A DNA stretch of 38,450 bases. It comes from a virus (lineage: Duplodnaviria; Heunggongvirae; Uroviricota; Caudoviricetes). A program made the translations under genes and the position numbers. This document shows, piece after piece, positions 8,550-25,613 of the stretch. The first letter of the stretch is position 1, and each line of letters starts with the position of its first letter. The stretch spans positions 1 to 38,450 of IMG/VR virus record IMGVR_UViG_2778261515_000019; one strand, given 5' to 3'. A model generated the notes under the pieces. It worked only from the letters and a program-made list of their open reading frames with translations, did not search any database and had not been told where the DNA came from.

Positions 8550-10454
8550 ATGAAACTGATTTCAAATAAGGCAAAATTAAAAAAGATTCTCAGAAATATC
8601 TCTGCTGCAATTCGCCCACCTAAAGCCATGAAACCTAGCGAATGGGTAGAGGCTAATGTAGTTGCAACCGATGGTGTTAAAGCCGGATCGCTAATTAAAT
8701 TGCATCCCTTCCAACGTGGAATGATGGACGCGATCACCGAAGACCGTAGAAAAATTGTGTTTAAATGTTCGGCGCAGTTGGGTAAGACCATGATTCTTAA
8801 CGGAATTATCTTCCATCGGATCGCGAGTAACCCTACGAATATTGGGGTGTTGCAAAGTAACGTTAGGGAACTAAATTCTTGGATCGCTGGTAAGGTGAAG
8901 CCAGTATTAGAGGCAACCCCAGAATTAAAGGCGATGATCACCGACAAATCAGATCGCAATGCCGTTAACAACTCATCGATTATTCAGCTTCGTAACGGAT
9001 CATTCATGTATTTCATGTCGTTGAATAGTCCGTCACATCTTCGCGGTAAAACACTCCCTTTGATTATTCTTGATGAAGTTGATGCGGCTGATGAGTCAGA
9101 CGAAGGGAACCCGATCCAGCTAGCGGAACAACGCGCAACCACTTTCGGGGAAGATGCAAGGATCGTAATTGCTTCCACTCCAACCGCTCGTGATGGGGCG
9201 ATTAACCAACAATGGGAACTCTCGGATAAGAGAAAATATCATGTCGTTTGTCAGCATTGCGGACACCGACACGTAATGGAATGGAGTAACGTTTATTTCG
9301 ATTGGCATACGATTAACGGTAAGTCATTACCTAACCCAGATACAGCCGTTTACCGCTGTCCTGCATGTGAAACCGACTGGACCGAAGGGGATCGCCTACG
9401 TGCTGTTGCTAAGGGAGAATGGGTCGCCACCGAACCAAATGCGGAAGTAATCGGTTTTCATGCTAACCGCCTTATGTCTCCGTTTAGTTCTATCCGTGCG
9501 TGTGTGGTGGACTTTGCTGATAGCTACGCGAATATGTCCCTGGCAACGTTCTACAATACAGTCCTCGGTGAAACCTTCGATGATCTTAACGAAGACCGCA
9601 CAGCCGACGAATTAGAAACGCTGAAAACTGATATTAGACTAGACAATATTCCTGATGATGTACTGGCTCTGGTTGGTGGAGTTGACCAGCAAAAAGACCG
9701 TCTGGAATCTACCTTGCTGGGTATTTCTCGTAAAGGGCTATGCGTAGTTGATCACCGATCATTCTATGATGTGAACTGCGAACGCCACGAATCGCCAGCA
9801 TATGACCAGCTTTACAACTTCCTGAAAGCTAAATTCTATACCCGATCCGGTGAACGAATCCCGATGTTATCTGCTTTCGTGGACTCATCGAACGGACGAG
9901 CTACAAACGTGATCTATCGATTCTGTAGTCGGTGGCAAAATCTAACCGCCATTAAAGGCGCAAGCAATGTTGATGCACCAATCCTTCCGGTAAAAGACAC
10001 AAGAACGGGTGGTTTTACCCTTAAAATTCTGGGCGTAAACAACCTTAAAACGATGATCCGTGAAATGATTAACCGGAATTTGAGAGATGGCGATCCTCAC
10101 ACTGTCTTCCAGATTGGTGACGTTCCTGATGACTATTGCGAGCAATTGCTTTCTGAACAGTTGAAACGGCAGGGTAATACCACACGTTGGGTAAAAGTTG
10201 GTCAGCAACGAAACGAGGCTCTCGACTGCCTGGCTTATTCCTATGCTGCTTCTCGCCATGTACTCAATAAAATGTCATGGGAAAAACTCGAAGCCATCAA
10301 AGATAGTTTGAACCGTGAACCAGAAGAATCCGTAGAAGCTCCTAAATCGCAATCTGACGAGAAAATAGAAGAAACTAAGCCAATCACACGACCACAACGT
10401 CAAAACATCGCCAGACGCCCAAATAGAGGCCGTGGCTGGGTAACATCGTTCTAA
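8550..10454 (+). CDS. terL: Terminase large subunit, GpA (lambda A) family
   Basis: 634 aa; motifs LHPFQRGMMDAI, ILDEVD, NTVLGETF, IKGAS, RNEALDC align with lambda gpA as recalled; start of long plus-strand morphogenesis operon. Confidence 0.85.
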   Translation: MKLISNKAKLKKILRNISAAIRPPKAMKPSEWVEANVVATDGVKAGSLIKLHPFQRGMMDAITEDRRKIVFKCSAQLGKTMILNGIIFHRIASNPTNIGVLQSNVRELNSWIAGKVKPVLEATPELKAMITDKSDRNAVNNSSIIQLRNGSFMYFMSLNSPSHLRGKTLPLIILDEVDAADESDEGNPIQLAEQRATTFGEDARIVIASTPTARDGAINQQWELSDKRKYHVVCQHCGHRHVMEWSNVYFDWHTINGKSLPNPDTAVYRCPACETDWTEGDRLRAVAKGEWVATEPNAEVIGFHANRLMSPFSSIRACVVDFADSYANMSLATFYNTVLGETFDDLNEDRTADELETLKTDIRLDNIPDDVLALVGGVDQQKDRLESTLLGISRKGLCVVDHRSFYDVNCERHESPAYDQLYNFLKAKFYTRSGERIPMLSAFVDSSNGRATNVIYRFCSRWQNLTAIKGASNVDAPILPVKDTRTGGFTLKILGVNNLKTMIREMINRNLRDGDPHTVFQIGDVPDDYCEQLLSEQLKRQGNTTRWVKVGQQRNEALDCLAYSYAASRHVLNKMSWEKLEAIKDSLNREPEESVEAPKSQSDEKIEETKPITRPQRQNIARRPNRGRGWVTSF

Positions 10455-12588: not shown

Positions 12589-14598
12589 ATGCTTAAATTT
12601 CGCCGCGATCTTAACGGTTACGGTGGAGTTATTAATGAAGGGCATAACGATCAATACGAATTTGAAATTGCTTTCTCAAGTACACAGCCTTATCAGCGCC
12701 AATTTTGGGATGAGCAAAATCAAGAAATGGTGGTATTAGATGAAATTCTGGTACATACACCGGAAGCGGTTGATCTGTCTCGTCTGAATAATAACGCTCC
12801 GTTGCTGTTCAATCATAATTTCGATAATCACATTGGTGTAGTCTGCGACGCTCGAATCGATGCGGATAACGTAGGCCGTGCTCTGGTTAAATTCTCTAAG
12901 CATGGCACTTTGGCTAATGATATTCGCAATAAAGTCATTGAAGGTACGATGGAAAAAATTTCTGTCGGTTATGACATTAAAGAATATCACATCGACTACA
13001 CCAAAGGGCAATTGATTGTTACTAAGTGGGCGCCTTTTGAAATTTCATTTGTGACGGTTCCCGCAGACGATTCGGTCGGTTTAAATCGCTCTCTAAATAC
13101 TATCACAGTTAATTTGGGGGCTAAACGAGATATGACTAAAGAACAAATCGAAGAAATCAAAGAAGAACAAGAATCAGCTCAGGTTGAAGAAACTCCGGTA
13201 GAAGAAAATAAAGAATCGGAAGTTGAAGAAACTCAAGAGCGCCAAGTTGAAGAGAATAAAGAAGATGAAAATCTCGAAGACGGAAAAGACGCTAAACATC
13301 CTGAAAGTGTTGATGATGATAGTTCAACTGTTCGGGAAACAGAAGAAGTAAAAGAAGAACGTGAAGCCGCTCCGGTTGAAGAAGAAAAAACCGAAGAAGT
13401 GGCTGAACGTTCCGAAGAAGACGAAGAAGAAATCCGAGCAATTGCGCGGGAACTAAATATTGATGACTCTGAATTAGCACGCGCATTGGCAATTAAAGAC
13501 ATGACGCCGGAAGCATTCCGCACTAAGGCACTAAATAATCTCGTCAATGCTCAACGTAATAACGAACAAATTAAGGACTCTAAAATGGAAAAAACTTTTG
13601 ACCTGAACAACGTAATTCGCTCTCTGGTAGATGGTGCTGCTCTGGGTGCTAACGAAGCTGAATATTCCGCTATGGCTGCTGGTGCTGCAATGCAGCGTGG
13701 TCGTGCTGCTCGCGGTGGCTCTGTATTCGTTCCGGCTGCTGCTCTGCGTGCTGCTTCCGAAGGTAACACCAAAGCTACTCTGACCGCTGTAACCGACGAA
13801 AAACTGCTGACTGAATCCTACATCGAAATGCTGCTTCCTGCTTCGTGTCTGGGTCGTCTGGGCGTGACCGTCCTGTCTGGTCTGAATGCTCCGATTGCTG
13901 TACCGAAAATGACTGCTTCCAGCGTTGATGCTTTCGGTTTCGTTGATGAAAACGGTGCTGCACCGGAAAGCAAAGCTGAATTTACAAACGTGAAAATGGC
14001 TCCGAAAACTTTTGCTGGTGGCAACCCGATCAGCCGTCAGTCTCTGAAAACTGTTCCGAATATTGCTACCCTGATCACTGATCACATTAACAAAGCTGTT
14101 CGTATCAAACTGGAACAACTGATTCTGTCTGACAAAGCTAACGAACGTGGTCCGAAAGGTCTGGTTAAGCAACTGGTAGACGCTAACCGCGTTACTAAGA
14201 AAACTGCTTTCTCTTACAAAGACTTCCTGAAAGAAATTGCAGCACTGACCGACGCTGGCGTTCCTGCTCAGGCGATCAAGTTCGCTATGAGTGGTGCAAC
14301 TGCTGCTGAACTGGAATCTACCCCGAAATCCGATCGTGGTGACGCTCAAGGCTTCATTATGGAAAACGGCAAACTGGCTGGTTACGATGTAGTTACTTCT
14401 GGCGTTATTCCGGCAGACCACATCGTTCTGGGTGACTTCTCCGGTATCATGATCGGTGAATGGGGTGGTCTGGAACTGGATATGGACGACACCACTTACC
14501 GCGCACAGTCTGCTATCGTTCCGCGTATCTGGGTAGACCTGGACTTCACCGTAGTTCAGCCGGAAGCTCTGAAAGTTCTGAAAATGGGCGAAGAGTGA
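12589..14598 (+). CDS. Prohead protease - acidic linker - scaffold-like coiled coil - HK97-fold major capsid protein, fused in one 669-aa ORF
   Basis: N-terminus has U35-type prohead protease motifs PLLFNHNFDNHIGVV and ISVGY; residues about 180-300 Glu-rich; C-terminal about 300 aa Ala/Gly-rich with capsid-like LSDKANERGPKGLV; optimal codons. Confidence 0.7.
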   Translation: MLKFRRDLNGYGGVINEGHNDQYEFEIAFSSTQPYQRQFWDEQNQEMVVLDEILVHTPEAVDLSRLNNNAPLLFNHNFDNHIGVVCDARIDADNVGRALVKFSKHGTLANDIRNKVIEGTMEKISVGYDIKEYHIDYTKGQLIVTKWAPFEISFVTVPADDSVGLNRSLNTITVNLGAKRDMTKEQIEEIKEEQESAQVEETPVEENKESEVEETQERQVEENKEDENLEDGKDAKHPESVDDDSSTVRETEEVKEEREAAPVEEEKTEEVAERSEEDEEEIRAIARELNIDDSELARALAIKDMTPEAFRTKALNNLVNAQRNNEQIKDSKMEKTFDLNNVIRSLVDGAALGANEAEYSAMAAGAAMQRGRAARGGSVFVPAAALRAASEGNTKATLTAVTDEKLLTESYIEMLLPASCLGRLGVTVLSGLNAPIAVPKMTASSVDAFGFVDENGAAPESKAEFTNVKMAPKTFAGGNPISRQSLKTVPNIATLITDHINKAVRIKLEQLILSDKANERGPKGLVKQLVDANRVTKKTAFSYKDFLKEIAALTDAGVPAQAIKFAMSGATAAELESTPKSDRGDAQGFIMENGKLAGYDVVTSGVIPADHIVLGDFSGIMIGEWGGLELDMDDTTYRAQSAIVPRIWVDLDFTVVQPEALKVLKMGEE

Positions 14599-15453: not shown

Positions 15454-16287
15454 ATGAATATTACACAAGATAACTTAGACATTTTCACGGGGTCGCATGT
15501 TGAAGTGTCGATCTCTAACCAGCTAGACAATCAGGTCGACTTTTTCGATCCTAGCTTTAGTTCTATGGAGAACATCGCAGCATTCCCTACGCTAACAGAA
15601 TCCACAGAGATTGAAACTCTGGAAGAGTACGATCAGGACGCTACGGGGAAACTTGCTGGTTATCGTAGACTGGAACCGACAACACTCACATTAAACCGTG
15701 TTCTTGACGATGAACATCAAGCAATGTTGATGAAAGCGGTAGAGGATAAAACACCTTTACGCTTCCGTATGTTCTATGTTGTGAACTCTGGCTATAGTGC
15801 TGCTAACACTGGTTACTATGTCATCTATGACGCTTATGTCACTAGTCACAAAACCCGTGGCGCAGATAACAAAGCTGTAACACTGGAATTTAAACTTGAA
15901 CCAGATGGCGGGATTCTAGCAAGGGGTATAGCGACCGAAGGCCGGATCTTACGTCAGGGTGATTTTGGTTTGGGTGCTGGTGTAAATCCATTCACGGGTC
16001 CGATTGATAGCGAGGCATTAGCAGGAAACCGTTTCGTAACTTACAAGGGAACCGCTAGCGGTAATCCATATTCAACCGACACAGCATTAATTCACCTTCA
16101 AGCTAATGAGCATGGCGCATGGCAATTAACCTGTAATACTTCTGGCGCACCGCGTTTACGTGTCCGAAATATTCAGGAAAACGGTCGTTCTGAATGGATC
16201 AAGGTATATTCCACCAATGAGAAACCGACACCTAGCGAAATTGGCGCAGTGGCTAAGACTGACCGGATCGATTTCGGTGAGTATTAA
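15454..16287 (+). CDS. Tail-tube-fold structural protein (tail terminator or second tube-like protein)
   Basis: Segment TLTLNRVLDDEHQAMLMKAVEDKTPLRFRMFYV parallels DLTLTVNYIPGDSVHEKLIKAAEDGTRVQIKIEYYV of the 20036..20509 protein. Confidence 0.45.
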   Translation: MNITQDNLDIFTGSHVEVSISNQLDNQVDFFDPSFSSMENIAAFPTLTESTEIETLEEYDQDATGKLAGYRRLEPTTLTLNRVLDDEHQAMLMKAVEDKTPLRFRMFYVVNSGYSAANTGYYVIYDAYVTSHKTRGADNKAVTLEFKLEPDGGILARGIATEGRILRQGDFGLGAGVNPFTGPIDSEALAGNRFVTYKGTASGNPYSTDTALIHLQANEHGAWQLTCNTSGAPRLRVRNIQENGRSEWIKVYSTNEKPTPSEIGAVAKTDRIDFGEY

Positions 16288-16364
16288 GATTGCTTACCTA
16301 AATAAAACATGAACGTTGGGAGGTTAACGCCTCCCTTATTCCTGTTTTATAGTGAGGTGATTCG

Positions 16365-19300
16365 ATGCAGTCGATCCAATTTAAACGCACACAAACGGCT
16401 GGTAAAAAACCAACGCCGGAACAATTATCACAGGGTGAAATCGCCTTACAGTTGGCGGATCATGTGATTTACACCAAAGACAAAAATAATAACGTAGTCC
16501 AAATTAGTGTTTCTCCAGAAAAACACGCTGAACTGAATACGAAAGTAGACAATAACAAAACTAGCACTGACCGTGTTATTGCTTCCAACAAACAAGAAGC
16601 CGCTAATAATCTGGCTAGTGCTAAAGCTGAACTGAATCAGACTATTACCACGAAAGATACAGCGACCAATAAGCGCATTGATGCTACTAACACCACGGTT
16701 AGTAACTTAACCCAGACAGTCACGGCAAATAAAACCGATGCTGATACTAAGATCAATAACCTTACGGGGACAGTTGCATCTAACAAATCAGCTATAGAAA
16801 CTACTGTAGCAAATAATAAACGAGATGCGGACAATAAAATCGCAGCTTTAACCACGACGGTTAATGACAATAACACCGCGATTAACAACAAAGTTAATAC
16901 CACTAACACCAACGTTAGCAACTTAACTAAAACTGTTACTGCAAATAAAACCGATGCAGATAACAAAATTTCTAGCTTAACTAGCACGGTTGCAGCTAAC
17001 AAAACAGCGATTGAAAAGGTCGTTTCCGACAACAAGAAAGATGCTGATACGAAGATCACCAACTTAACCAACACTGTTAATAGCAACCACACCGCCATTA
17101 ACAACAAGGTTGACCAGAATAAATCAGCTACTGATTCAGCGATTGCAGCCGCTAACCGTCGAATTGATGGTATTGAAGGTAGCAACGATGCTCTTTACAT
17201 CAAGAAGAATACCAACACTAAGCACGGCGGGTATCTGTTAAGCAAGACAGCTAACTATCTGGAAGACCAGACATCACGAGATCTTAACTACTTTGGTGCT
17301 TTCCGTACCAATGGTCTTGATGGACTCATGGATCTAACTCTTAACGTTCCTCACTCTGCCGGTAAAGCTCACGGTCGCGGATTTACTTTCCGTTATGCGT
17401 CTGGTGGATCTCGTGTTGAAACCTATGGTTTTGATAGAGATGGACAGAAGAACTTTAGCTATAAGATGTATCACGAAGGTGATAAGCCGACTCCTGGCGA
17501 GATTGGTGCATACACCAAAGCCGAAGTTGATAAGATGTTTGTTAAAAACGTCGCTATGTCTGTTCCCAATTCTAGCGAAAACGTATCTGCATATTTCAAA
17601 TTGGCAACCGCAACAATTCCACAAAACGGGCGTAGTGTGTTTTTCCGTATTCATGGTGGTGATGGTTACAACGTTGCGGCATATGACCAAGTTGATGTAG
17701 TAGAAATTCTTCTCCGTAGTGGTAACGATAGACCTAAAGGACTTAACGTAGTTGCATATCGTCGAAATACCGTCAAAGATTTTGATGTATTTGCCGTCAA
17801 TACATCCGGTGATAACTATGACATTTATGTGAAATATCAGCGTTACACTGATAACGTTATTGTAGAATATGGGAAATCTGTTAATGTAAGTCTGACGGTT
17901 TATGATACGCCGGAAGCCACGTTAATTAAACCTTCTGTTGGTGTTATTGGCGGTCGCGCGGTAACTCTATTCAATACAGAAAACAAACGAGGTGTGTTGA
18001 GTTTTGACGATAACACACAAAATAGTTATGATATTGTTCACTTGAGTAATGATAGGGGTACTGGACGAAAATATATTCGTAAATTCCGTAGTAACTATAA
18101 TGAAATGATCTGGCACGAGACGGTTCAAGGCGCCAGCTATCGTCTGGCTACTGGTGCAACTGATGCTCAGGAGATTCTAACCGTTGAATCTGTTAGCTCA
18201 ATTGCTGGAACTCATAAAGGTAATATTACTTCTGGCCGTATGCTGTTAAATGGCGGTAGTAATGTTATTACCTTGCGGCGTCCTGCTGGTCAATCCAACC
18301 ATATTGCGTTTCAAGATAATCGGACTGGAGATATTACCCGTCAAGGGTGGATCGGTTATGCCAATGCTGATACTAACGTTTTTGAATGGTATAGTGATGT
18401 AGGTGGCAGTTCTATTCGTCAACATATCGACGGACAGATCGAACTTGCAACCGGTAACACAAAACGCGTTTATACTAACGCTCAATTCATCTCAATGAAT
18501 AGCGACGCCTACCGTATGCTCTATGGTAATTATGGTGCATTCTGGCGTAATGACGGCGTTAAAGTTTATCTTCTTTCTACTGCCGAAAATGATAAATTGG
18601 GCGGATGGAATACTTATCGTCCATTCATTTATGATTTAACTTCCGGTAACGTTCAATTAGGCGGTGATGGTAACGAAGATGCATTAACGTTAGAACGTGC
18701 TTCTCGTGCCGCTCGCTTTAGTAATGACGTTTACATTAAGAAAGGGCATTTGACTTTCGACGCTGGGCGATTAAATTCCCGCGATTACTTCCGGTTTAAC
18801 CATTGGGGTGATAGCAATAACGGTCGCGATAACATCCTACAGATTGAAGACAGTAAGGGCGCACATTTTACCACTGAACGTACTTTATCAACTGGTGCGA
18901 TTAAAACTAAATTCTTCGGTGATTTGGAATCTGCTGGTCAAATTAAATGGGGTAAAGGGACCGCCGCATCTACGTTTACTCTACGTGTATGGGGTAACGA
19001 TAGTCGTAAACAAATATTTGAATGTGGCGATGAAAGTGGGTGGCATTGGTATACCCAACGACCTGGCGGTCCAGGTACTACAGCAATAGAATTTGCTATC
19101 AACGGTACTGTTAAGCCTCAAGCAATTCACAGTGGCGGTAATATCACTATCAACGGTGCTGATATTGAGTTTCGTCGCAGTGGCAATAAGCATTTGTGGT
19201 TTAGAGATCCGAACGGTTTAGAGTTAGGCTTGATGTACTGCGATGATGCTGGTGCTATTCGCTTCCGTGGTCAGAAACAAGCCCAGGCGTGGAAATTTGC

Positions 19301-19979
19301 AGATAAAATGATCCAGTTGGAATCTGGCACTGTATCCGGTGGCGGTAATGGCCTGATTCGTGGTGAAGTTGCTGGCGGTAGTTGGGCTAGCTGGCGTGAC
19401 CGTGCTGCTGGCCTTATGGTTGGGTGTCCTCAATCCACCAACTCGGCACATAACGTATGGAAAGCGACGCATTGGGGTAAATATCACATTGCAGCAATGG
19501 CTGTACATGTTCCTGATGGTACTATTACCAATGCTTTAGCTCGCCTAAACGTTCATGACGCCAACTTTGACTTTAACGCTGCGGGTGATTTTAGCGCAAG
19601 TCGTAATGGTAGCTTTAACGATGTTTACATTCGTTCGGACCGTCGTCTGAAAGTTAATCTGGAAGAATTAAAAGATGATGCTTTAGAGAAAGTAAACTCC
19701 CTGAAAGTCTACTCATACGATAAAGTTAAGTCTCTTAAAGATCGTAGTGTGATTAAACGCGAAGTCGGTATTATTGCTCAGGATCTGGAAGAAGTATTGC
19801 CGGAAGCAGTAGGTATTCAATCCACCGAAGATCCAGAAAATCCAGAAGCAATTAAGACTATTTCTAACTCTGCTGTTAATGCCTTGATTATTAAAGCTAT
19901 TCAGGAAATGGACGCCAAATATCAAGCTAAGATTGAAGCATTGACTAAAGAGATTGCCGAACTCAAAGCAACTAAATAA
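16365..19979 (+). CDS. Long tail fiber with N-terminal Thr/Asn-rich tandem repeats and C-terminal intramolecular-chaperone-like domain
   Basis: 1204 aa; two ~72-aa repeats NxSNLTxTVTANKTDADxKI...; C-terminal SDRRLKVNLEEL...VYSYD...GIIAQDLEEVLPEAV resembles autoproteolytic chaperone domains of fiber/endosialidase proteins. Confidence 0.8.
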   Translation: MQSIQFKRTQTAGKKPTPEQLSQGEIALQLADHVIYTKDKNNNVVQISVSPEKHAELNTKVDNNKTSTDRVIASNKQEAANNLASAKAELNQTITTKDTATNKRIDATNTTVSNLTQTVTANKTDADTKINNLTGTVASNKSAIETTVANNKRDADNKIAALTTTVNDNNTAINNKVNTTNTNVSNLTKTVTANKTDADNKISSLTSTVAANKTAIEKVVSDNKKDADTKITNLTNTVNSNHTAINNKVDQNKSATDSAIAAANRRIDGIEGSNDALYIKKNTNTKHGGYLLSKTANYLEDQTSRDLNYFGAFRTNGLDGLMDLTLNVPHSAGKAHGRGFTFRYASGGSRVETYGFDRDGQKNFSYKMYHEGDKPTPGEIGAYTKAEVDKMFVKNVAMSVPNSSENVSAYFKLATATIPQNGRSVFFRIHGGDGYNVAAYDQVDVVEILLRSGNDRPKGLNVVAYRRNTVKDFDVFAVNTSGDNYDIYVKYQRYTDNVIVEYGKSVNVSLTVYDTPEATLIKPSVGVIGGRAVTLFNTENKRGVLSFDDNTQNSYDIVHLSNDRGTGRKYIRKFRSNYNEMIWHETVQGASYRLATGATDAQEILTVESVSSIAGTHKGNITSGRMLLNGGSNVITLRRPAGQSNHIAFQDNRTGDITRQGWIGYANADTNVFEWYSDVGGSSIRQHIDGQIELATGNTKRVYTNAQFISMNSDAYRMLYGNYGAFWRNDGVKVYLLSTAENDKLGGWNTYRPFIYDLTSGNVQLGGDGNEDALTLERASRAARFSNDVYIKKGHLTFDAGRLNSRDYFRFNHWGDSNNGRDNILQIEDSKGAHFTTERTLSTGAIKTKFFGDLESAGQIKWGKGTAASTFTLRVWGNDSRKQIFECGDESGWHWYTQRPGGPGTTAIEFAINGTVKPQAIHSGGNITINGADIEFRRSGNKHLWFRDPNGLELGLMYCDDAGAIRFRGQKQAQAWKFADKMIQLESGTVSGGGNGLIRGEVAGGSWASWRDRAAGLMVGCPQSTNSAHNVWKATHWGKYHIAAMAVHVPDGTITNALARLNVHDANFDFNAAGDFSASRNGSFNDVYIRSDRRLKVNLEELKDDALEKVNSLKVYSYDKVKSLKDRSVIKREVGIIAQDLEEVLPEAVGIQSTEDPENPEAIKTISNSAVNALIIKAIQEMDAKYQAKIEALTKEIAELKATK

Positions 19980-20035
19980 TAAAAGTCGGGGGACTAGTTC
20001 CCCCGTTATAACAAATTTAATTAAGGGGTAATTAT

Positions 20036-20509
20036 ATGTCTCAACAATTCAAAGATATTTTTACTGGTGGTTTGGTAAGTCTGTTCTATCACGCTGATAC
20101 CACTAACACCGCTCTCAACCATGAGGGGTATGAAGAAATTAAAGAGTGTGCTGGTTTTCCTGAAACTGGTATCGAGCGCGGTACTGTAGAAGTTAAATCC
20201 TTCTCTTCTCAGTATAACCGTAAACTGGTAGGGAAGCTGAACGTTCCTGATCTGACTCTTACGGTGAATTACATCCCCGGGGATAGTGTCCACGAAAAAT
20301 TGATCAAAGCTGCCGAAGACGGCACAAGAGTACAAATCAAAATAGAGTATTATGTTGACGCCGGAAAACAGACTGGTATTCGCACCGCTTTCAACGGCTT
20401 CATTTCTAAAGTTGCTATGAACGGTGGCGATGAAGAAGTGGTAACTAAAGAGTTTACCTTTGCAGTGGACGGCAAACCGCTGAAACAGGAAATCTTCACT
20501 GCCGGATGA
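20036..20509 (+). CDS. Major tail tube protein
   Basis: 157 aa; strong RBS AAGGGGT; followed by terminator module as for capsid gene; tube-like motif DLTLTVNY ... FTFAVDG. Confidence 0.6.
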   Translation: MSQQFKDIFTGGLVSLFYHADTTNTALNHEGYEEIKECAGFPETGIERGTVEVKSFSSQYNRKLVGKLNVPDLTLTVNYIPGDSVHEKLIKAAEDGTRVQIKIEYYVDAGKQTGIRTAFNGFISKVAMNGGDEEVVTKEFTFAVDGKPLKQEIFTAG

Positions 20510-20629
20510 ACTAACGAAGAACTTCCCGAACCGGAACCACAGCCGGAACATGAAGCGGTGGTGATTCCAGAAGTAGAAGAAGTTACGGCGAAAGCCACAG
20601 CTAAACGAAGCCGCAAGGCTAAAGATTAA
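20510..20629 (+). other. In-frame 39-codon extension after the tail-tube TGA stop (TNEELPEPEPQPEHEAVVIPEVEEVTAKATAKRSRKAKD)
   Basis: Frame open from TGA (20507-09) to TAA (20627-29); shares AACGAAGAA(T/C)T.CC.GAA start and the identical 24-nt block with the capsid extension; indels relative to that copy are multiples of 3. Confidence 0.3.
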
Positions 20630-20634
20630 TTATA

Positions 20635-20663
20635 AGCCCTGCCTTAATGGTGGGGCTTTTTTA
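20635..20663 (+). terminator. Rho-independent terminator (copy 2 of duplicated module)
   Basis: AGCCCTGCCTT-AAT-GGTGGGGCT followed by TTTTTTATT. Confidence 0.7.
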
Positions 20664-20678
20664 TTGGAGCAATAAAAA

Positions 20679-21185
20679 ATGGCGAATGTCGTTAATAAGC
20701 CCGGCTGGGTCGGGTCATCTGCTGTTTCTGTAACTAGTCAACGATGGATGACCGCAGCAATGAACGCATTAAAGGTTAGTCGCCCAGCTAACATGAGTGC
20801 GATGTGTGGTCGTGGTATGGATACGGTTGTAGCTACTGCTGCGTGGTCTACTTCATTGGGTAATAACTGGGGTGTAACTGCTTCAAACTATCCAGTAACT
20901 GACATGCGCGGTAAAGGATCTATGGAGAACCCCGAAAACGTTGGCGTAGGGCGTCTGATTGGCGTTATCGTTGGTCAATTCAATGGTGGTACTCCTACTA
21001 TGGCTGTATATCTCCAGAACGGTAGAGCGGGGAATATAACCGTTAATTTGGGTGGTGCTGCTGTCACTGTTCCTTATAACAGTATGCAAAGTGGTTTTCA
21101 TTACTACTGGTTAAGCAATCCTCCGGCTGCTTTCCTTACCAACATTAAGAAGACTGGCACTAAGCAGACTTTGAAAATCTCTTAA
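20679..21185 (+). CDS. Tail-associated protein of unknown role
   Basis: 168 aa; between tail tube and chaperone genes. Confidence 0.45.
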   Translation: MANVVNKPGWVGSSAVSVTSQRWMTAAMNALKVSRPANMSAMCGRGMDTVVATAAWSTSLGNNWGVTASNYPVTDMRGKGSMENPENVGVGRLIGVIVGQFNGGTPTMAVYLQNGRAGNITVNLGGAAVTVPYNSMQSGFHYYWLSNPPAAFLTNIKKTGTKQTLKIS

Positions 21186-21227: not shown

Positions 21228-21536
21228 ATGAATATTAATGAAATGCTGAAAGCTCTTTCTCCGAAACGTGAATCTCTGACCATCGGTGGATTTACTTTCT
21301 ATGCTCGCCCTATGTCAGTAAAAGAATTTAACGAACATGTTTTCAATACTGATAAAGAAGACCGTGATGAACGTTCTATTCTTCGTTGTATTGAAGATGA
21401 AGATGGTAAACCGGTATTTGAATCTATGGAACAAGTTAAGGCACTGTATACTAACGTCCGCAGTGAATTAATCGGTTTGGTTGCTCAAGCATCATTGATG
21501 CAAGATCCGGCAGTAATTGAAAACGAGGTAAAGTAA
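21228..21536 (+). CDS. Tail assembly chaperone (G-like)
   Basis: 102 aa directly upstream of the tape measure gene; overlapping -1 frame ORF follows. Confidence 0.6.
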   Translation: MNINEMLKALSPKRESLTIGGFTFYARPMSVKEFNEHVFNTDKEDRDERSILRCIEDEDGKPVFESMEQVKALYTNVRSELIGLVAQASLMQDPAVIENEVK

Positions 21537-21916
21537 ACCCGCTTCTGAATTTCTACTTTCGGCAAATGATGCGATCGGGGCTTAGTAAAGATGAAATGGA
21601 TAATATGCCAATCACTCTGTTTTGGAAATTATACATTTTCGACACCTACTTAGAACCACAAAGCCCCGCGTTTCATGATATGCAGAATGCGATGTTGCAA
21701 TATTCCATGTATATGACGTCACAAGGAATGACACGCGAAACTGCACGTAAACTCAAGCCTAGCCAATTCCAATTAATTAGAGAAGAAAAACTCTTTAAAA
21801 CTAAAGAAGAACTGGAAGAACTTGCACGCAAGAAAGAAGAAGAACGTAAAGCTGCAACATTGAGCATGTTCGATCCATCTTTGCTTGAGAAACTCAGAAG
21901 CGCACAAACGGGGTAA
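21521..21916 (+). CDS. Tail assembly chaperone frameshift extension (GT-like product via -1 slip near 21530-21533)
   Basis: -1 frame open from 21521 to 21916; candidate slip A-AAG immediately before the G stop codon TAA. Confidence 0.5.
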   Translation, partial: KRGKVNPLLNFYFRQMMRSGLSKDEMDNMPITLFWKLYIFDTYLEPQSPAFHDMQNAMLQYSMYMTSQGMTRETARKLKPSQFQLIREEKLFKTKEELEELARKKEEERKAATLSMFDPSLLEKLRSAQTG

Positions 21917-21919
21917 TTT

Positions 21920-24349
21920 ATGACAAGACATATAGTAACAATAGAAGGGGATAATAAAGGTCTAAGGAGAAGTACCAATGAAGCCGCCGACCTTCTCGAT
22001 CGTTTGTCTGAAAAGGCAAGTAATATTGATTTTGGTGGTGGCTTATCTGGTCTGACTGGATCTCTTCGTGGGATCGCTGGCTCTGCTGGTTTGGCTGCTG
22101 GTGGTATCGGCTTAGTTGCTACCGCAGTGGTTGCAGCCGCTAAAGCTGGCGCGGAATACGTTAAACAGTATTCAGAAGTATCTAAGGCGACCGGACTCTC
22201 GATTGAATCCCTTCAAAGACTGGAAAAGGAATTTTCTGGTACTGGCCTAACAGTTGAAAAATTCGGTGATATCAACAAAGACACCTTAGATAAGATGGGT
22301 GATGCATGGGCTAACGGTGGTGGTATTGCTGATGACTTAGAATCGGTTGGCCTTAAGTTAGAAAACTATGCTCACTTCATGACAGATCCGCAAGGTGGTA
22401 TGAAAGCGGCGATCCAAGTGTTCTATGACATGAAGAAAGCCGGAAAATCAATGGCTGAAATCAAGTTCATGATGGAATCTTTAGCCAGTGATTCAAGCCA
22501 TATGACCAGCCAGCTTGAGAAATATAATAGTGCTCAAGAGGCGATGATCGCTATTCAGAATCAATCTGTTAACGTCACCGAAGAAAACGCTAAAAAATAT
22601 GATAAATTTTCTCAGAATATTAATAAGCTGGAAAATAACCTGAAAGGTGTCGGTATGACCATTACTGGTCCGCTGGTTGATAGCTTAAACTGGTTATTTG
22701 AATGGTTTAATATTGATTGGGAAAAGAGTTCTCTATTCAGGGCATTAGACCGTCTGAATAAAGAAGGTAAGACCGCAACTGGTGGTATTCTTAACACCAA
22801 CCATAAAGACGCTCAAAAGATTATTGACAAGTACAATAAAGAAAAGCGTTGGAATAATCTGGCAGATTGGGAAAAGGCCGCGATCCGTGGTGCTGGTGTC
22901 GATCCTCGTACTGCTGGCTTTGATGTTGAAGGATTTAAGAAACGTTTTGGTGATTCTTATAAGAAAAATGGCTCTCTGATTGTTGTCGATAACGGGGAAC
23001 ATCTAACCCGCAAGGCAGATCCTAACCATGATTTGACTATCCCGACTACACCAACTCGACCAGCTTCATTGGGTAAGTCTGGCAACGAGAAGAAAGCCGA
23101 GGAAGAAGCCAAAAAGAAAGCGGAAGAGGCAGCTAAAAAGGCTAAGGAAGCCGCAGAAAAAGCACAGAAAGCACGCGAGGATGCAATCAAGCGACTGAAT
23201 GCACTTGATGTTAAATTGCAAGGGCAAGTTGCAGCGTCTATTGCTTCTCAAAACAAGCAGTTAGAAGCCAGCTTGAAAGATTTGGATACTGCTTTAGATC
23301 TGGGCTTAATCTCTCAGCAAGACGCAGCCGCGAAACGCCAATCATTAATCGATCAGAATACTGAAAACGTATACAAGATGATTTTAGGTGCTGATCCGGT
23401 TGATGCTTTGAATGCCTTAACACAATTGCAACAAATCAGGGACAACGAGTTAGAAAGCCATAAACGGTTACTTGATGGCAAGGCTATCTCCTACGAAGAA
23501 TATATGCGTCGTGTGAATGATACCGAACAAAGTTATTCACAGATTGAAGATTCTTTGCATGGAATGGATGGTTTTAAAACCAATCAGTTGACCAATAGCT
23601 TAGACTATCAAGACTCAAATAACCCGTTTGCTAAATTTAATGCAATCGATAAAGAGAAATCGGAAGCGGAACAAGATTATAAGACCGATAAACTCAAGAT
23701 TGATGGGATCACCGATCCGGCTAAACGGATGGCTGCATTAGAAAAACTCAATGAAAACCATCAAAAACGAATGGCTGCAATTGAGAAGAAATATGCTGAT
23801 GCTCGACAGTCAATAGCCGATGATATGTATGGCGGTTTTGCTGCTGCAATGACTCTCTTCGGGCAGGAAAACACTAAAGCTATGCAGATGGCTTTCACTG
23901 CTCATAAAGCATTCTCCATTGGACAAGCGACGGTGAACATGTGGACGGCTGCTACCGATGCATGGAACGATCCGACCAACGTAACCACAGGTCAAAAAAT
24001 CGCTGCTGCTGCATTGGCTGTTTCTCAGAACATGGGGAACATCGCAAACATCAAGTCTACTAACGTTAGCGGTATGGCTCACGATGGTATTGATAACATC
24101 CCTCGTGAGGGTACATGGCTGCTTGATAAGGGTGAACGAGTAGTTGATCAGCGTACTAACGGTGATTTGAAAGACTTCTTATCTGCTCAAAAATCAGGCG
24201 GTGGCAACTCTCAGCCGATTGAAGTTAATGCGCCTTTGAACATTAACGGCAACGTTAATAGCTCAGACAAGATGGTTATGGATGCTATCAAACGTCACGC
24301 TAAGTTAGTTGCTCAGGCGGTAGAAGACGCACAGCGCCGTAAGATGTAA
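21920..24349 (+). CDS. Tail tape measure protein
   Basis: 809 aa; Gly-rich membrane-like segment GIAGSAGLAAGGIGLVATAVVAAA; extensive coiled-coil; position after G/GT. Confidence 0.85.
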   Translation: MTRHIVTIEGDNKGLRRSTNEAADLLDRLSEKASNIDFGGGLSGLTGSLRGIAGSAGLAAGGIGLVATAVVAAAKAGAEYVKQYSEVSKATGLSIESLQRLEKEFSGTGLTVEKFGDINKDTLDKMGDAWANGGGIADDLESVGLKLENYAHFMTDPQGGMKAAIQVFYDMKKAGKSMAEIKFMMESLASDSSHMTSQLEKYNSAQEAMIAIQNQSVNVTEENAKKYDKFSQNINKLENNLKGVGMTITGPLVDSLNWLFEWFNIDWEKSSLFRALDRLNKEGKTATGGILNTNHKDAQKIIDKYNKEKRWNNLADWEKAAIRGAGVDPRTAGFDVEGFKKRFGDSYKKNGSLIVVDNGEHLTRKADPNHDLTIPTTPTRPASLGKSGNEKKAEEEAKKKAEEAAKKAKEAAEKAQKAREDAIKRLNALDVKLQGQVAASIASQNKQLEASLKDLDTALDLGLISQQDAAAKRQSLIDQNTENVYKMILGADPVDALNALTQLQQIRDNELESHKRLLDGKAISYEEYMRRVNDTEQSYSQIEDSLHGMDGFKTNQLTNSLDYQDSNNPFAKFNAIDKEKSEAEQDYKTDKLKIDGITDPAKRMAALEKLNENHQKRMAAIEKKYADARQSIADDMYGGFAAAMTLFGQENTKAMQMAFTAHKAFSIGQATVNMWTAATDAWNDPTNVTTGQKIAAAALAVSQNMGNIANIKSTNVSGMAHDGIDNIPREGTWLLDKGERVVDQRTNGDLKDFLSAQKSGGGNSQPIEVNAPLNINGNVNSSDKMVMDAIKRHAKLVAQAVEDAQRRKM

Positions 24350-24399: not shown

Positions 24400-24960
24400 A
24401 TGTTCAAATCAAAGAATATTAAAATCACAGATTTTACTCTTAAATCAAAACAGCCTTTCTTCAAGGCGCAATCTATCTCCGGTAAGTTCCAGCGTCGCTT
24501 TACTGGCATCCATTTTTACGAAGCAGAATTTACCGCGAATTTCATGGCTCAGGATATTAACGAAGTAAAAGAATTTGTAGCACGTCACCTTTTTGGTCGT
24601 CCTTTCAATGTGCCACTGTCTTACTTTTCAAAATATACAGGTGATGTACGCCAGATGGTAACGGCTGCTGCTGGTACTGCTCGCGGTGGGCGTAAGGTGA
24701 GAATCTCCAACTTCACCGGAACACTGAAAGCGGGAACTGTCATCCAGTTTGAGAACCACAAGAAAATCTACACGATCACCGAAGATGTGAAATCAGGTGG
24801 TGAAATGAAACTCTTCCCTAACTTGCGTCAAAACGTCCTGGCGGGTGAGGTGATCAAGTATCAAAACGTAGAAGGTGAATTTGTTCTCAAAACTGAAAAT
24901 ATCGATTGGAAGATCGCCCAGATTGGCAAGATGAAATTCGAATTAGTGGAGAATGTATAA
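24400..24960 (+). CDS. Minor tail protein (distal tail / gpM position)
   Basis: 186 aa; position after tape measure. Confidence 0.45.
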   Translation: MFKSKNIKITDFTLKSKQPFFKAQSISGKFQRRFTGIHFYEAEFTANFMAQDINEVKEFVARHLFGRPFNVPLSYFSKYTGDVRQMVTAAAGTARGGRKVRISNFTGTLKAGTVIQFENHKKIYTITEDVKSGGEMKLFPNLRQNVLAGEVIKYQNVEGEFVLKTENIDWKIAQIGKMKFELVENV

Positions 24961-25613
24961 TGGCAACTATTCAAGAATCATTCAGCAAACTATGCACTAA
25001 TCTGGACTTCATCGAGGTATACAACGACCAGACAGGTCAGAATGTGTCTAGATTGACTCTACCGCAGCTTTTCTCTACTGGCTCGATGTTTCACATTATC
25101 GAAGTGATAACAGCGTCAGGTGACGTTCTACGGCTTACAGATGGGTATTTCGATTTGGACTATAACGGTTTTACATATCTCGCAACGGGTGACTTTCTTC
25201 AAATCTCATCGAATACCGAAGAGAAGGAGATCAACAACAACGGGATCAACGTAACTGTTTCTAACGTTCGCGAGGAATACATTACTCTCATTCGAAACAA
25301 GCAATTCGATAAATCTGATGTGAAAATCGAGATGGTTTTCCTTAACCCCAACACGGGAAAGGTTGAAACCACTTACCCTGTTTTCCGTGGGGTAGTCGAT
25401 TCCATCGGGATTAACATCGAACATGAAGATGATGAGTGTAAAAACGAATCAGAATTTCAGCTTAATAGTATCTGGGAAGTTCTAGATAAAAACGCCCGTA
25501 GTCATGCCTCCGATGGTATCCACCGTTCCTATGTTGGAAACGAGAACGATCTATTCTTCTCTCGTGCCGGGAAGTGGAATAGCGAAAGCAAGTGGCATTC
25601 TTCTAAGAAATAA
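24960..25613 (+). CDS. Minor tail protein L-like
   Basis: ATG overlaps upstream stop (TAATG); 217 aa; weak gpL-like segments; C-terminal Cys/His-containing region. Confidence 0.45.
   Translation: MATIQESFSKLCTNLDFIEVYNDQTGQNVSRLTLPQLFSTGSMFHIIEVITASGDVLRLTDGYFDLDYNGFTYLATGDFLQISSNTEEKEINNNGINVTVSNVREEYITLIRNKQFDKSDVKIEMVFLNPNTGKVETTYPVFRGVVDSIGINIEHEDDECKNESEFQLNSIWEVLDKNARSHASDGIHRSYVGNENDLFFSRAGKWNSESKWHSSKK

What the first reader, a model, noticed from the sequence alone, without database searches (positions are those of the whole stretch)
21228..21916. Tail chaperone -1 frameshift at an A-AAG slip site abutting the stop codon
The -1 frame opens at 21521 and runs to the tape measure start, overlapping the last 5 codons of the G-like gene. 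The only plausible slip site is A-AAG (21530-21533) immediately before the TAA stop, a stop-adjacent single-tRNA slip rather than the classic heptamer used by lambda.
Basis: partly seen in the sequence, partly recalled or inferred. Interest (0 to 1): 0.4.

Follow-up and report, generated by a model that had tools for sequence, protein, structure and literature searches.

The report
Tail chaperone frameshift at A-AAG
An E. coli prophage very probably makes its two tail-assembly chaperones (G and a longer G-T fusion) by letting a few ribosomes slip back one base on the sequence A-AAG just before the stop codon: a well-known phage trick, using a less common slip site, that genome databases have missed.

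Summary

Comparison of 15 lineages (32-96% identity; E. coli, Proteus, Edwardsiella, phage DCP80, metagenomes) supports a -1 shift at A_AAG:
- T is always in the -1 frame.
- An in-frame A_AAG is invariant at the homologous codon, while the flanks and the stop position vary.
- Invariant T-frame residues (F109, R112) lie upstream of ATG 21566, which has no Shine-Dalgarno.
- Four lineages have no start codon there at all.

No RNA structure or conserved upstream Shine-Dalgarno was detected. The stop abuts the slip codon in 8 lineages, but lies 1, 4 or 10-11 codons later in the others. Adjacency is therefore real here but not required in the family, and its role as a stimulator is unproven. DCP80 uses a canonical T_TTA_AAG.

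Verdict: an unannotated but ordinary G/GT frameshift with a hexanucleotide-type slip site. G is mislabelled 'cytochrome' in NCBI. No experimental proof exists. Interest is low to moderate.

The parts
21228..21536 (+). G-like tail assembly chaperone gene (102 aa, 11.7 kDa), the product of standard decoding
21527..21533 (+). Slip site G_GUA_AAG. The core tetramer A_AAG is at 21530-21533 and the Lys codon AAG at 21531-33 re-pairs with AAA at 21530-32.
   Evidence: Sequence. An in-frame A_AAG is invariant at the homologous codon in 15 lineages, with heptamers GGTAAAG, AGTAAAG, GGAAAAG, AGAAAAG and TTTAAAG. The synonymous choices are always an A-ending codon plus AAG (rough P about 4e-7).
21534..21536 (+). 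0-frame stop UAA directly 3' of the slip codon (context UAA-A)
   Evidence: The stop is adjacent in 8 of 15 lineages, 1 codon later in 4, 4 codons later in 1, and 10-11 codons later in 2. Relative L087/L015 has an in-frame GTA insertion giving AAG TAG TAA.
21518..21520 (+). TGA in the -1 frame, which sets the 5' limit of the 13-nt shift window (21521-21533)
   Evidence: the -1 frame is open for only 3 codons before the slip AAA.
21533..21916 (+). T segment read in the -1 frame after the slip (127 codons plus TAA at 21914-16). The fusion is join(21228..21533, 21533..21916) = GT, 229 aa, 26.8 kDa.
   Evidence: Pfam Phage_tail_T (lambda gpT) below threshold in 6 of 13 fusions, best E 5e-6. The fusion sequence is absent from the 15-billion-protein collection.
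21533..21565 (+). T-frame segment VNPLLNFYFRQ, upstream of any start codon. It is coding and conserved, and reachable only from G by the frameshift.
   Evidence: Variable columns by T-frame codon position are 3/3/9. Synonymous:non-synonymous changes are 9:8 in the T frame against 1:14 and 2:9 in the other frames. F109 is invariant and R112 is at least 90% conserved across 13 lineages.
21566..21571 (+). ATG ATG (M114, M115 of GT): internal Met codons, not a credible independent start
   Evidence: Anti-SD duplex is -1.1 and -1.7 kcal/mol, against -5.6 to -8.4 for six neighbouring genes. The first ATG is ATT in L101. There is no ATG/GTG/TTG at all before the RxGL motif in L103, L106, L109 and DCP80. 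Gene callers disagree on the start (116, 113, 103 and 100 aa). PGAP starts the gene at the position equivalent to 21605.
21525..21529 (+). GAGGU, a Shine-Dalgarno-like run that abuts the slip site. Probably incidental.
   Evidence: -6.5 kcal/mol against the anti-SD. It is present only in the window clade and absent in L101, L102, L065 and others. The spacing is far shorter than the roughly 10-14 nt known to stimulate -1 shifts (Larsen et al. 1994, from memory).
21521..21524 (+). A_AAC, a second formal Z_ZZN tetramer inside the overlap. Rejected as the programmed site.
   Evidence: Not conserved (L114 GAAAGC, L102 GAACAA, L101/L089 GAAGAA). A_AAC is not among the six tetramers at least four-fold above background in E. 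coli. E. coli tRNA-Asn promotes only double-type slippage (Atkins 2016).
21920..24349 (+). Tape measure protein gene (809 aa), the expected client of G/GT
   Evidence: PHROG 13674, tape measure, E 2e-65.
20036..20509 (+). Tail tube protein gene (157 aa), the expected partner of the T domain
   Evidence: PHROG 158, major tail protein, E 1e-21. Pfam Phage_TTP_11 and Phage_TTP_12 near threshold. RefSeq names it 'phage tail tube protein'.

Best explanation
This is the G/GT programmed -1 ribosomal frameshift of a siphovirus-type E. coli prophage.

Most ribosomes translate the chaperone gene to UAA (21534-36) and release G (102 aa). A minority shift back one base when the single E. coli tRNA-Lys (anticodon mnm5s2UUU), paired with AAG at 21531-33, re-pairs with AAA at 21530-32. 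The next codon read is then GUA (21533-35). [quoted passage not shown]

By analogy with lambda, the G part of both proteins coats the tape measure protein (21920-24349), and the T part recruits the tail tube protein (20036-20509). The slip frequency fixes the G:GT ratio.

Shown here:
- the frame arrangement;
- the chaperone fold of G;
- the invariance of A_AAG across lineages;
- coding-type conservation of the T frame upstream of any start codon.

Inferred:
- that the shift occurs, and its efficiency;
- the route of the slip. It could be an A-site or translocation slip of tRNA-Lys on an NNA_AAG hexanucleotide, as in IS1222 and cdd. It could instead be a P-site slip while the A site waits on the stop codon.

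I consider the stop codon at most an accessory here, not the core signal.
For: Anatomy.

Identity of G:
- PHROG 344.
- Pfam TAC_13 in 11 of 13 relatives.
- The named BFVD matches are mostly 'tail assembly chaperone' (8 of 11 named matches; the other 3 are baseplate proteins), with TM 0.4-0.6.

Identity of T: Pfam Phage_tail_T in 6 of 13 fusions.

Synteny: tube, G, T, tape measure, distal tail protein.

Comparative evidence:
- T is in the -1 frame in every lineage, and an in-frame A_AAG sits at the homologous codon in all 15.
- DCP80 has a canonical U_UUA_AAG at that very codon, and the peptide after the K aligns: K|ADWVKRFRY, K|VNWAKRFKY, K|VNPLLNFYF.
- An in-frame 3-nt insertion at the junction in L015/L087 keeps the frame relation.
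- Third-position-biased variation and a synonymous excess appear only in the T frame of the 33-nt segment before ATG 21566.
- Invariant F109 and conserved R112 lie upstream of that ATG.
- ATG 21566 has no SD, and four lineages have no start codon at all.
- This is the only in-frame A_AAG in the window with a long -1 ORF, and A_AAG is otherwise depleted.

Literature:
- A_AAG is the most shift-prone tetramer in E. coli (PMC4066793).
- E. coli has a single tRNA-Lys reading both AAA and AAG. NNA_AAG sites are used by IS1222 and occur in B. subtilis cdd. G_GU and G_GA are documented near-cognate P-site classes (PMC5009743).
Against: - There is no experimental evidence (mass spectrometry, western blot or reporter) for the fusion.
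- Without a stimulator, tetramer motifs were barely above background in E. coli reporters (0.147% against 0.112%; PMC4066793). I found no stimulator. Downstream folding is no better than shuffles (z 0.5-0.8 in the window, -1.85 to +1.46 in 13 lineages). No conserved SD lies 10-14 nt upstream. The yield of GT could therefore be very low, unless the stop codon or an undetected element helps.
- The stop context UAA-A (UAA-U in L065) is, from memory of Poole et al. 1995, an efficient terminator. That is not what one expects of a selected 'shifty stop'.
- In the L100/L119 lineage the G stop overlaps an ATG in the T frame (TGATG). This shows that translational coupling may be able to express T separately in at least one relative.
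- The family assignments by Pfam are below the curated thresholds.
Confidence: 0.85

Rival explanations
1. Shifty-stop version of the same frameshift. The UAA in the A site is the essential stimulator. With AAG-tRNA-Lys in the P site and release-factor recruitment slow, the P-site tRNA slips -1 and GUA is decoded. The G:GT ratio would then be set by competition with RF1/RF2.
For: The stop abuts the slip codon in the window and in 8 of 15 lineages, and is only one codon away in 4 more. The junction insertion in L015/L087 recreates an adjacent stop (AAG TAG). No other stimulator was found. One-tRNA P-site slippage with a vacant A site needs no downstream structure (PMC6771820; PMC10861913). The one lineage with a canonical tandem heptamer (DCP80) has the stop 10 codons away.
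Against: L107 (A_GUA_AAG, stop 11 codons later) and L100/L119 (the same G_GUA_AAG with TAA changed to AAA, stop 4 codons later) keep the site without an adjacent stop. In four lineages a sense codon (AAC or AAA) intervenes. UAA-A and UAA-U are strong termination contexts (from memory). The T-frame codons GUA-AAC (Val-Asn) alone explain the UAA. The adjacent-stop lineages are partly one clade, so the counts overstate independence.
Confidence: 0.3
2. No frameshift. T is a separate protein started at ATG 21566 (or 21596/21605), either de novo or by re-initiation of ribosomes that terminated at UAA 21534.
For: An ATG-ATG pair is conserved in many relatives. Gene callers and PGAP annotate a separate ORF. 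Only 29 nt lie between the stop and the ATG, so re-initiation is conceivable. In L100/L119 a TGATG overlap suggests coupling.
Against: ATG 21566 and 21569 have no SD (-1.1 and -1.7 kcal/mol). The 33 nt upstream evolve as coding sequence in the T frame and encode invariant F109 and conserved R112. L101 has ATT at the first ATG. L103, L106, L109 and DCP80 have no start codon before the conserved RxGL motif. The frame relation and A_AAG are invariant, and the junction indel is in frame; none of this is needed for a separate gene.
Confidence: 0.07
3. The frameshift is real but uses tandem two-tRNA slippage on the near-cognate heptamer G_GUA_AAG during translocation (P-site tRNA-Val GUA to GGU, A-site tRNA-Lys AAG to AAA), as at the G_GU heptamer of T7 gene 10, rather than a single-tRNA slip.
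For: Atkins 2016 lists G_GU (T7 gene 10) and G_GA as working intermediate X_XX classes. 11 of 15 lineages have G_GUA or G_GAA, and DCP80 has the fully canonical U_UUA_AAG.
Against: L102 and L107 (A_GUA_AAG) and L109/L110/L117 (A_GAA_AAG) lack a G at position 1, so re-pairing of the P-site tRNA is not conserved.
Confidence: 0.3
4. The slip occurs at A_AAC (21521-24), or the frame change is made at the RNA level by transcriptional slippage.
For: A_AAC is a formal Z_ZZN tetramer, and its -1 codon AAA is the first open codon of the T frame.
Against: A_AAC is not conserved and is not among the frameshift-prone tetramers in E. coli. The longest A runs are 4 nt (21520-23) and 3 nt (21530-32), far short of the homopolymer lengths known to cause transcriptional slippage (general knowledge).
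Confidence: 0.02

Closest known systems
Phage lambda G/GT tail assembly chaperone frameshift, conserved across dsDNA tailed phages (Levin 1993; Xu, Hendrix and Duda 2004, as cited in PMC5009743)
   Same: Two ORFs lie immediately upstream of the tape measure gene, the second in the -1 frame with no start of its own. The slip is on ...A_AAG near the end of G. No RNA stimulator is known. G has the chaperone fold, and the T part weakly matches Pfam Phage_tail_T.
   Different: Lambda uses the canonical G_GGA_AAG. Here position 3 is U (G_GUA_AAG), so the P-site tRNA cannot re-pair cognately, and the 0-frame stop follows the slip codon directly. A T-even-type gp38 adhesin gene sits between the tube gene and G.
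HK97 tail assembly chaperone (PDB 2OB9) and the YqbN / rbstp2171 group
   Different: Only 11-20% sequence identity, and no sequence-level PDB hit.
Hexanucleotide NNA_AAG -1 frameshift sites: IS1222 G_CGA_AAG (programmed) and B. subtilis cdd A_CGA_AAG (incidental) (Licznar 2003; Mejlhede 1999; summarised in PMC5009743)
   Same: The core is A_AAG, without cognate P-site re-pairing. It depends on the shift-prone tRNA-Lys(UUU). The preceding codon ends in A and is read by a tRNA with a modified U34 (inference for GUA and GAA).
   Different: The 5' codon is GUA or GAA, not CGA. From memory, IS1222 has a downstream structure and cdd an upstream SD; none was detected here.
Phage T7 gene 10A/10B -1 frameshift at G_GUU_UUC
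   Same: It has the same G_GU near-cognate P-site class (PMC5009743). It is a phage structural gene, with the shift close to the end of the 0-frame ORF.
   Different: The A-site codon is UUC, not AAG. The products are capsid proteins, not a chaperone.
'Shifty stop' recoding (prfB CUU_UGA, antizyme; Weiss 1987)
   Same: A slip-prone P-site codon is directly followed by a stop. In the window clade an SD-like GAGG lies 2 nt 5' of that codon, which superficially resembles prfB.
   Different: Those are +1 shifts with weak stop contexts and an autoregulatory logic. Here the shift is -1, the stop is UAA-A, and neither adjacency nor the SD is conserved in the family.
E. coli dnaX A_AAA_AAG
   Same: The same tRNA-Lys AAG-to-AAA re-pairing in the same host.
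   Different: dnaX has a full heptamer plus an upstream SD and a downstream hairpin, and shifts at about 50%. Its -1 product is the shorter one.

Membership tests
Phage G/GT tail assembly chaperone programmed frameshift | Two consecutive ORFs between the tail tube gene and the tape measure gene | tested here: met
   Tube 20036-20509, [gp38-like 20679-21185], G 21228-21536, T to 21916, tape measure 21920-24349. The same order occurs in DCP80, Proteus and Edwardsiella relatives.
Phage G/GT tail assembly chaperone programmed frameshift | The second ORF overlaps the 3' end of the first in an alternative frame and lacks its own conserved start or RBS | tested here: met
   -1 frame in all 15 lineages. 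ATG 21566 has an SD of -1.1 kcal/mol. No start codon in 4 lineages.
Phage G/GT tail assembly chaperone programmed frameshift | A conserved slippery sequence in the overlap | tested here: met
   In-frame A_AAG is invariant at the homologous codon. Rough P about 4e-7 from codon usage.
Phage G/GT tail assembly chaperone programmed frameshift | The first ORF has the tail assembly chaperone fold or family | tested here: met
Phage G/GT tail assembly chaperone programmed frameshift | The second segment is homologous to a T domain | tested here: inconclusive
   Pfam Phage_tail_T at 18.8 bits against a cut-off of 25.9 in the window. 6 of 13 relatives hit it, best E 5e-6. PHROG 337 'tail protein', E 0.0098.
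Phage G/GT tail assembly chaperone programmed frameshift | A GT fusion protein is produced at a low fixed ratio and is required for tail assembly | not testable with these tools
   Needs a western blot, mass spectrometry or genetics.
Canonical X_XXY_YYZ tandem-slippage heptamer | Both P-site and A-site tRNAs can re-pair in the -1 frame at the first two codon positions | tested here: not met
   In G_GUA_AAG, GUA goes to GGU and mismatches at codon position 2. A_GUA_AAG and A_GAA_AAG relatives mismatch at two positions. The feature is met only in DCP80, with U_UUA_AAG.
Hexanucleotide / tetranucleotide A_AAG -1 sites (IS1222, cdd type) | In-frame A_AAG in a host whose only tRNA-Lys has anticodon UUU | tested here: met
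   Motif. The host is E. coli: 53 of 5426 complete genomes carry the locus. E. coli has a single tRNA-Lys according to PMC5009743.
Hexanucleotide / tetranucleotide A_AAG -1 sites (IS1222, cdd type) | An accompanying stimulator (downstream structure or upstream SD at about 10-14 nt) | tested here: not met
   Fold z-scores of 0.5-0.8 in the window and -1.85 to +1.46 in relatives. No conserved SD at the proper distance.
'Shifty stop' recoding | [quoted passage not shown] | tested here: inconclusive
   Adjacent in the window and in 8 of 15 lineages. Displaced by 1, 4 or 10-11 codons in the other 7.
'Shifty stop' recoding | Shift efficiency responds to release-factor activity | not testable with these tools
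   Needs reporter assays with altered RF1/RF2 levels.

The most novel reading that the evidence does not exclude
In this prophage clade the -1 shift is a true 'shifty stop'. The G:GT ratio would be set by kinetic competition between RF1/RF2 termination at UAA and backward slippage of P-site tRNA-Lys on A_AAG, with no RNA stimulator. Tail assembly stoichiometry would then be coupled to host release-factor activity or growth state. Related lineages (stop displaced, or a canonical U_UUA_AAG heptamer) would represent alternative solutions within one gene family.
Probability: 0.25. Interest if true: 0.5.

Novelty: new member of a known kind. Interest (0 to 1): 0.3.

Why it matters
For annotation: this prophage family occurs in about 1% of complete E. 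coli genomes, and also in Shigella, Salmonella, Proteus and Edwardsiella. Its records lack the GT fusion entirely, call T with four different starts, and name G 'cytochrome'. A join(21228..21533,21533..21916) feature and the name 'tail assembly chaperone' would correct hundreds of records.

For recoding biology: the family is a compact natural series at one homologous codon. The P-site classes are U_UU, G_GU, G_GA, A_GU and A_GA, and the stop lies at +0, +1, +4 or +10-11 codons. This series could be used to measure how much the P-site codon and an adjacent stop contribute to A_AAG slippage in E. coli when no RNA structure is present. It also shows that predictors limited to X_XXY_YYZ heptamers will miss real tail chaperone frameshifts.

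Tried and rejected
- Megablast of the module against INPHARED phages found no match. tblastn found only DCP80.
- The search for homologous proteins with the artificial fusion returned nothing. The G part alone worked.
- The genome-contig scan gave a single locus.
- A profile search of the family against PDB sequences gave only a chance hit to SbcD (E 0.25). Only the fold comparison found the chaperones.
- The search for a downstream hairpin or pseudoknot found nothing better than shuffled sequence, in the window or in 12 relatives.
- For an upstream SD stimulator, only GAGGU abutting the site was found. It is clade-specific and wrongly spaced.
- CTG 21545, and the TTG at the same codon in L092, L120, L100 and L101, were considered as starts served by GAGG. 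They were rejected because the spacing is 16 nt and the codon is not conserved.
- A_AAC 21521-24 was rejected as the slip site.
- A +1 shift was rejected. That frame closes after 17 codons, and T is in the -1 frame.
- A sequencing error or pseudogene was rejected. The arrangement recurs in more than 50 independent genomes.
- The Mejlhede 1999 and Licznar 2003 papers are not held in the library. Their content is cited only through reviews.
Full report
OBSERVATION

- An ORF runs from ATG 21228 to TAA 21534-36 (102 aa).
- Its last 0-frame codons are GAA AAC GAG GUA AAG UAA.
- The -1 frame has TGA at 21518-20 and is then open from 21521 (AAA CGA GGU AAA GUA AAC CCG ...) to TAA at 21914-16, three bases before the ATG (21920) of an 809-aa ORF.
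- A_AAG occupies 21530-33, the first T-frame ATG is at 21566, and the predicted junction is ...ENEVK|VNPLL....

The one inaccuracy is 'only plausible slip site'. The 13-nt shift window also contains A_AAC (21521-24).

WHAT THE GENES ARE

The window is a siphovirus-type prophage. It carries a terminase, a portal, a fused protease-capsid gene, tail genes, a helicase and a large serine recombinase.

It is an E. coli prophage. 53 of 5426 complete E. coli genomes carry this stretch at 60-99% identity. G homologues also occur in Shigella, Salmonella, Proteus and Edwardsiella.

Around the finding the order is: tail fibre (16365-19979), tail tube (20036-20509), gp38-type adhesin (20679-21185), G, T, tape measure (21920-24349), distal tail protein (24400-24960).

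Evidence that G is a tail assembly chaperone:
- It matches PHROG 344 'tail assembly chaperone' (E 2e-7).
- It matches Pfam Phage_TAC_13 below threshold, as do 11 of 13 family members.
- The named BFVD matches are mostly 'tail assembly chaperone' (8 of 11 named; the other three are baseplate proteins).

The T-frame segment matches Pfam Phage_tail_T (lambda gpT) below threshold in 6 of 13 fusions, best E 5e-6.

COMPARATIVE TEST OF THE FRAMESHIFT

I collected relatives from several sources:
- IMG/VR, metagenomes and GTDB genomes;
- RefSeq E. coli;
- Proteus, Edwardsiella and a Logan assembly;
- the only GenBank phage hit, Escherichia phage DCP80.

They reduce to 15 lineages, 32-96% identical to the window in the proteins compared (G-T fusions; G alone). 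In all 15, T is in the -1 frame and exactly one in-frame A_AAG sits at the homologous Lys codon.

The heptamers and the distance to the 0-frame stop are:

| Lineage(s) | Heptamer | What follows the slip codon in frame 0 |
|---|---|---|
| window, L092, L089, L118, L120, L101 | G_GUA_AAG | UAA directly |
| L102 | A_GUA_AAG | UAA directly |
| L065 clade | G_GAA_AAG | UAA directly |
| L103, L108 | G_GAA_AAG | AAC, then UAA |
| L106 | G_GAA_AAG | AAA, then UAA |
| L109 clade | A_GAA_AAG | AAA, then UAA |
| L100 / L119 | G_GUA_AAG | AAA..., stop 4 codons on |
| L107 | A_GUA_AAG | stop 11 codons on |
| DCP80 | U_UUA_AAG (fully canonical) | stop 10 codons on |

The peptide that follows the Lys in the -1 frame aligns across these lineages: K|VNPLLNFYFRQMMRSGL, K|VNWAKRFKYAQMMRRGL, K|GNWAKQFRYRQLMRKGL, K|ADWVKRFRYRLILRGL.

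Further points:
- F109 is invariant and R112 is at least 90% conserved. Both are encoded upstream of M114, which is ATG 21566.
- Within the close clade, the 33 nt between the slip site and that ATG vary at T-frame codon positions 1/2/3 in the ratio 3/3/9. They show 9 synonymous against 8 non-synonymous codon variants in the T frame, against 1:14 and 2:9 in the other frames.
- One relative has an in-frame GTA insertion exactly at the junction (AAG UAG UAA A...), which duplicates the Val and keeps the frame relation.
- ATG 21566 and 21569 have essentially no Shine-Dalgarno (-1.1 and -1.7 kcal/mol, against -5.6 to -8.4 for six neighbouring genes).
- L101 has ATT at the first ATG. L103, L106, L109 and DCP80 have no ATG, GTG or TTG anywhere between the upstream -1-frame stop and the invariant RxGL motif.

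The conserved N-terminal part of T can therefore be translated only by ribosomes that arrive from G.

Given the amino acids and the window's codon usage, the chance that eight deep lineages all pair an A-ending codon with AAG is roughly 4e-7 (a rough figure that assumes independence).

In the window's own genes, in-frame A_AAG is depleted two-fold (31 against 65.5 +/- 7). Of the 22 plus-strand sites, only this one is followed by a -1 ORF longer than 15 codons.

The second candidate, A_AAC at 21521-24, is lost in L114 (95% identical), L101, L089 and L102. It is also not among the tetramers found clearly frameshift-prone in E. coli.

HOW IT MOST LIKELY WORKS

E. coli has one tRNA-Lys (mnm5s2UUU) for both AAA and AAG. 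A_AAG is the most shift-prone tetramer in this host, with the hierarchy A_AAG >> U_UUC > U_UUU > ... (PMC5009743; PMC4066793).

The P-site codon here cannot re-pair cognately. GUA to GGU mismatches in the middle position, and relatives with A_GUA or A_GAA mismatch at two positions. The invariant element is therefore the tetramer, or the hexanucleotide NNA_AAG. That is the class used by IS1222 (G_CGA_AAG) and seen in B. subtilis cdd (A_CGA_AAG).

In that class the A-site tRNA-Lys slips when the preceding A-ending codon is read by a wobble-prone tRNA (Licznar 2003, as summarised).

G_GU and G_GA are also documented 'intermediate' X_XX classes, for example in T7 gene 10. A near-cognate tandem slip is therefore possible in the window itself.

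I found no stimulator:
- The 57-121 nt downstream fold no better than shuffles (z 0.5 and 0.8).
- The same holds in 12 relatives (z -1.85 to +1.46).
- No SD-like run lies 10-14 nt upstream. The GAGGU at 21525-29 abuts the site, is confined to the window clade, and is wrongly spaced.

This matters because bare tetramers gave about 0.15% shifting in E. coli reporters, against 5.6% for A_AAG with the IS3 pseudoknot.

Either a very low GT yield suffices (lambda needs about 1 GT per 30 G), or the adjacent stop helps. One-tRNA P-site slippage with an unoccupied A site needs no mRNA structure. This is the 'shifty stop' idea.

- For it: the stop is adjacent or one codon away in 12 of 15 lineages, and the only canonical heptamer (DCP80) has a distant stop.
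- Against it: L107 and L100/L119 keep a non-canonical A_AAG with the stop 11 and 4 codons away. UAA-A and UAA-U are efficient terminators (from memory). The T-frame codons GUA-AAC by themselves explain the UAA.

I rate the frameshift at A_AAG at 0.85 and an essential role of the stop at about 0.3.

RIVALS

- Independent initiation or re-initiation at ATG 21566 would leave the conserved, coding-like segment 21533-65, the invariant frame relation and the invariant A_AAG all unexplained (0.07). It may, however, operate alongside the shift in L100/L119, where the displaced G stop overlaps an ATG in the T frame (TGATG).
- Transcriptional slippage is implausible, because the A runs are only 3-4 nt.
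- A sequencing artefact is excluded, because the arrangement recurs in more than 50 genomes.

COMPARISON WITH WHAT IS KNOWN

Functionally this is the lambda G/GT system. It meets the membership criteria that can be tested here: synteny, an overlapping -1 ORF without a start, a conserved slip motif, and the chaperone fold. Homology of the T domain is only sub-threshold, and production of GT is untested.

It is not a canonical X_XXY_YYZ site; that feature was tested and not met. It belongs with the A_AAG hexanucleotide sites.

Non-canonical motifs are already common among annotated tail chaperone frameshifts (PRFect, PMC10885494). The motif type is therefore not new either.

NOVELTY AND VERDICT

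This is a new member of a known kind.

What is new is practical:
- The fusion is absent from a 15-billion-protein collection.
- RefSeq annotates two separate hypothetical genes, with T truncated.
- G is widely named 'cytochrome'.

What could be of modest mechanistic interest is the natural allelic series at one codon, and the open question of whether an adjacent UAA substitutes for an RNA stimulator. Interest 0.3.

Noticed in passing
window 21228-21536 and homologues P0002-P0056: The 102-aa G protein is named 'cytochrome' in NCBI and UniRef for E. coli, Salmonella, Proteus and Edwardsiella. It has no cytochrome features, and it folds like the HK97 tail assembly chaperone. This is a propagated misannotation.
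   Followed up: yes
window 8579-8585: A dnaX-type A_AAA_AAG heptamer lies in frame at codons 10-12 of the terminase large subunit gene (8550-10454). A -1 shift there would terminate after 12 codons. It could be incidental, or it could be a brake on terminase synthesis. Conservation in relatives was not checked.
   Followed up: partly
window 25355-25361: A lambda-type G_GGA_AAG heptamer lies in frame inside the tail gene 24960-25613. The -1 frame stops after 1 codon. Probably incidental.
   Followed up: partly
window, 29 long ORFs: In-frame A_AAG (a codon ending in A followed by AAG) is depleted two-fold relative to codon-shuffled genes (31 against 65.5 +/- 7). This is consistent with selection against accidental -1 slippage, or with a codon-pair bias.
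   Followed up: partly
window 15454-21185: T-even-type host-recognition genes sit between two tube-like genes (15454-16287 and 20036-20509, both PHROG 158) of a siphovirus-type tail module. They are a 1204-aa fibre (its Edwardsiella homologue, and a Logan-assembly homologue, carry Gp34_trimer and Peptidase_S74 domains) and a Gp38_N adhesin (20679-21185). The adhesin gene separates the tube gene from G.
   Followed up: no
L100 1804-1830; L119 (Edwardsiella tarda) 1800-1830: In this lineage the adjacent stop is mutated (TAA to AAA). G runs 4 codons further and its new TGA overlaps an ATG in the T frame (TGATG), a classic translational-coupling arrangement. A_AAG is retained. This is possibly a lineage in transition between frameshift and coupled expression of T.
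   Followed up: partly
L030 3220-4900 (IMGVR_UViG_2925919700_000005): An IS10-like transposase gene (406-aa ORF) is inserted after codon 73 of G in one relative, so that prophage is presumably tail-defective. Another relative (L071) has a premature stop inside T.
   Followed up: partly
L001 (Escherichia phage DCP80, PQ671644, 10097-18342): This 141-kb phage is filed under Straboviridae/Tevenvirinae. It carries the same siphovirus-type block (fibre, tube-like gene, G, T, 804-aa tape measure) with a canonical T_TTA_AAG slip site, all annotated as hypothetical and without a frameshift. Either the taxonomy or the assembly deserves a look.
   Followed up: no
window 12589-14598: The 669-aa major head protein matches the PHROG families 'major head and protease protein' and 'head maturation protease' in addition to the capsid families. 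This suggests a fused protease-capsid gene.
   Followed up: no
L065 (JBEBQJ010000175.1): The only hit in the one-genome-per-species collection is a 10-kb contig binned into a Sphingobacterium MAG. Every other host of this family for which the organism is known (E. coli, Shigella, Salmonella, Proteus, Edwardsiella) is Enterobacterales, so the contig is probably mis-binned.
   Followed up: no
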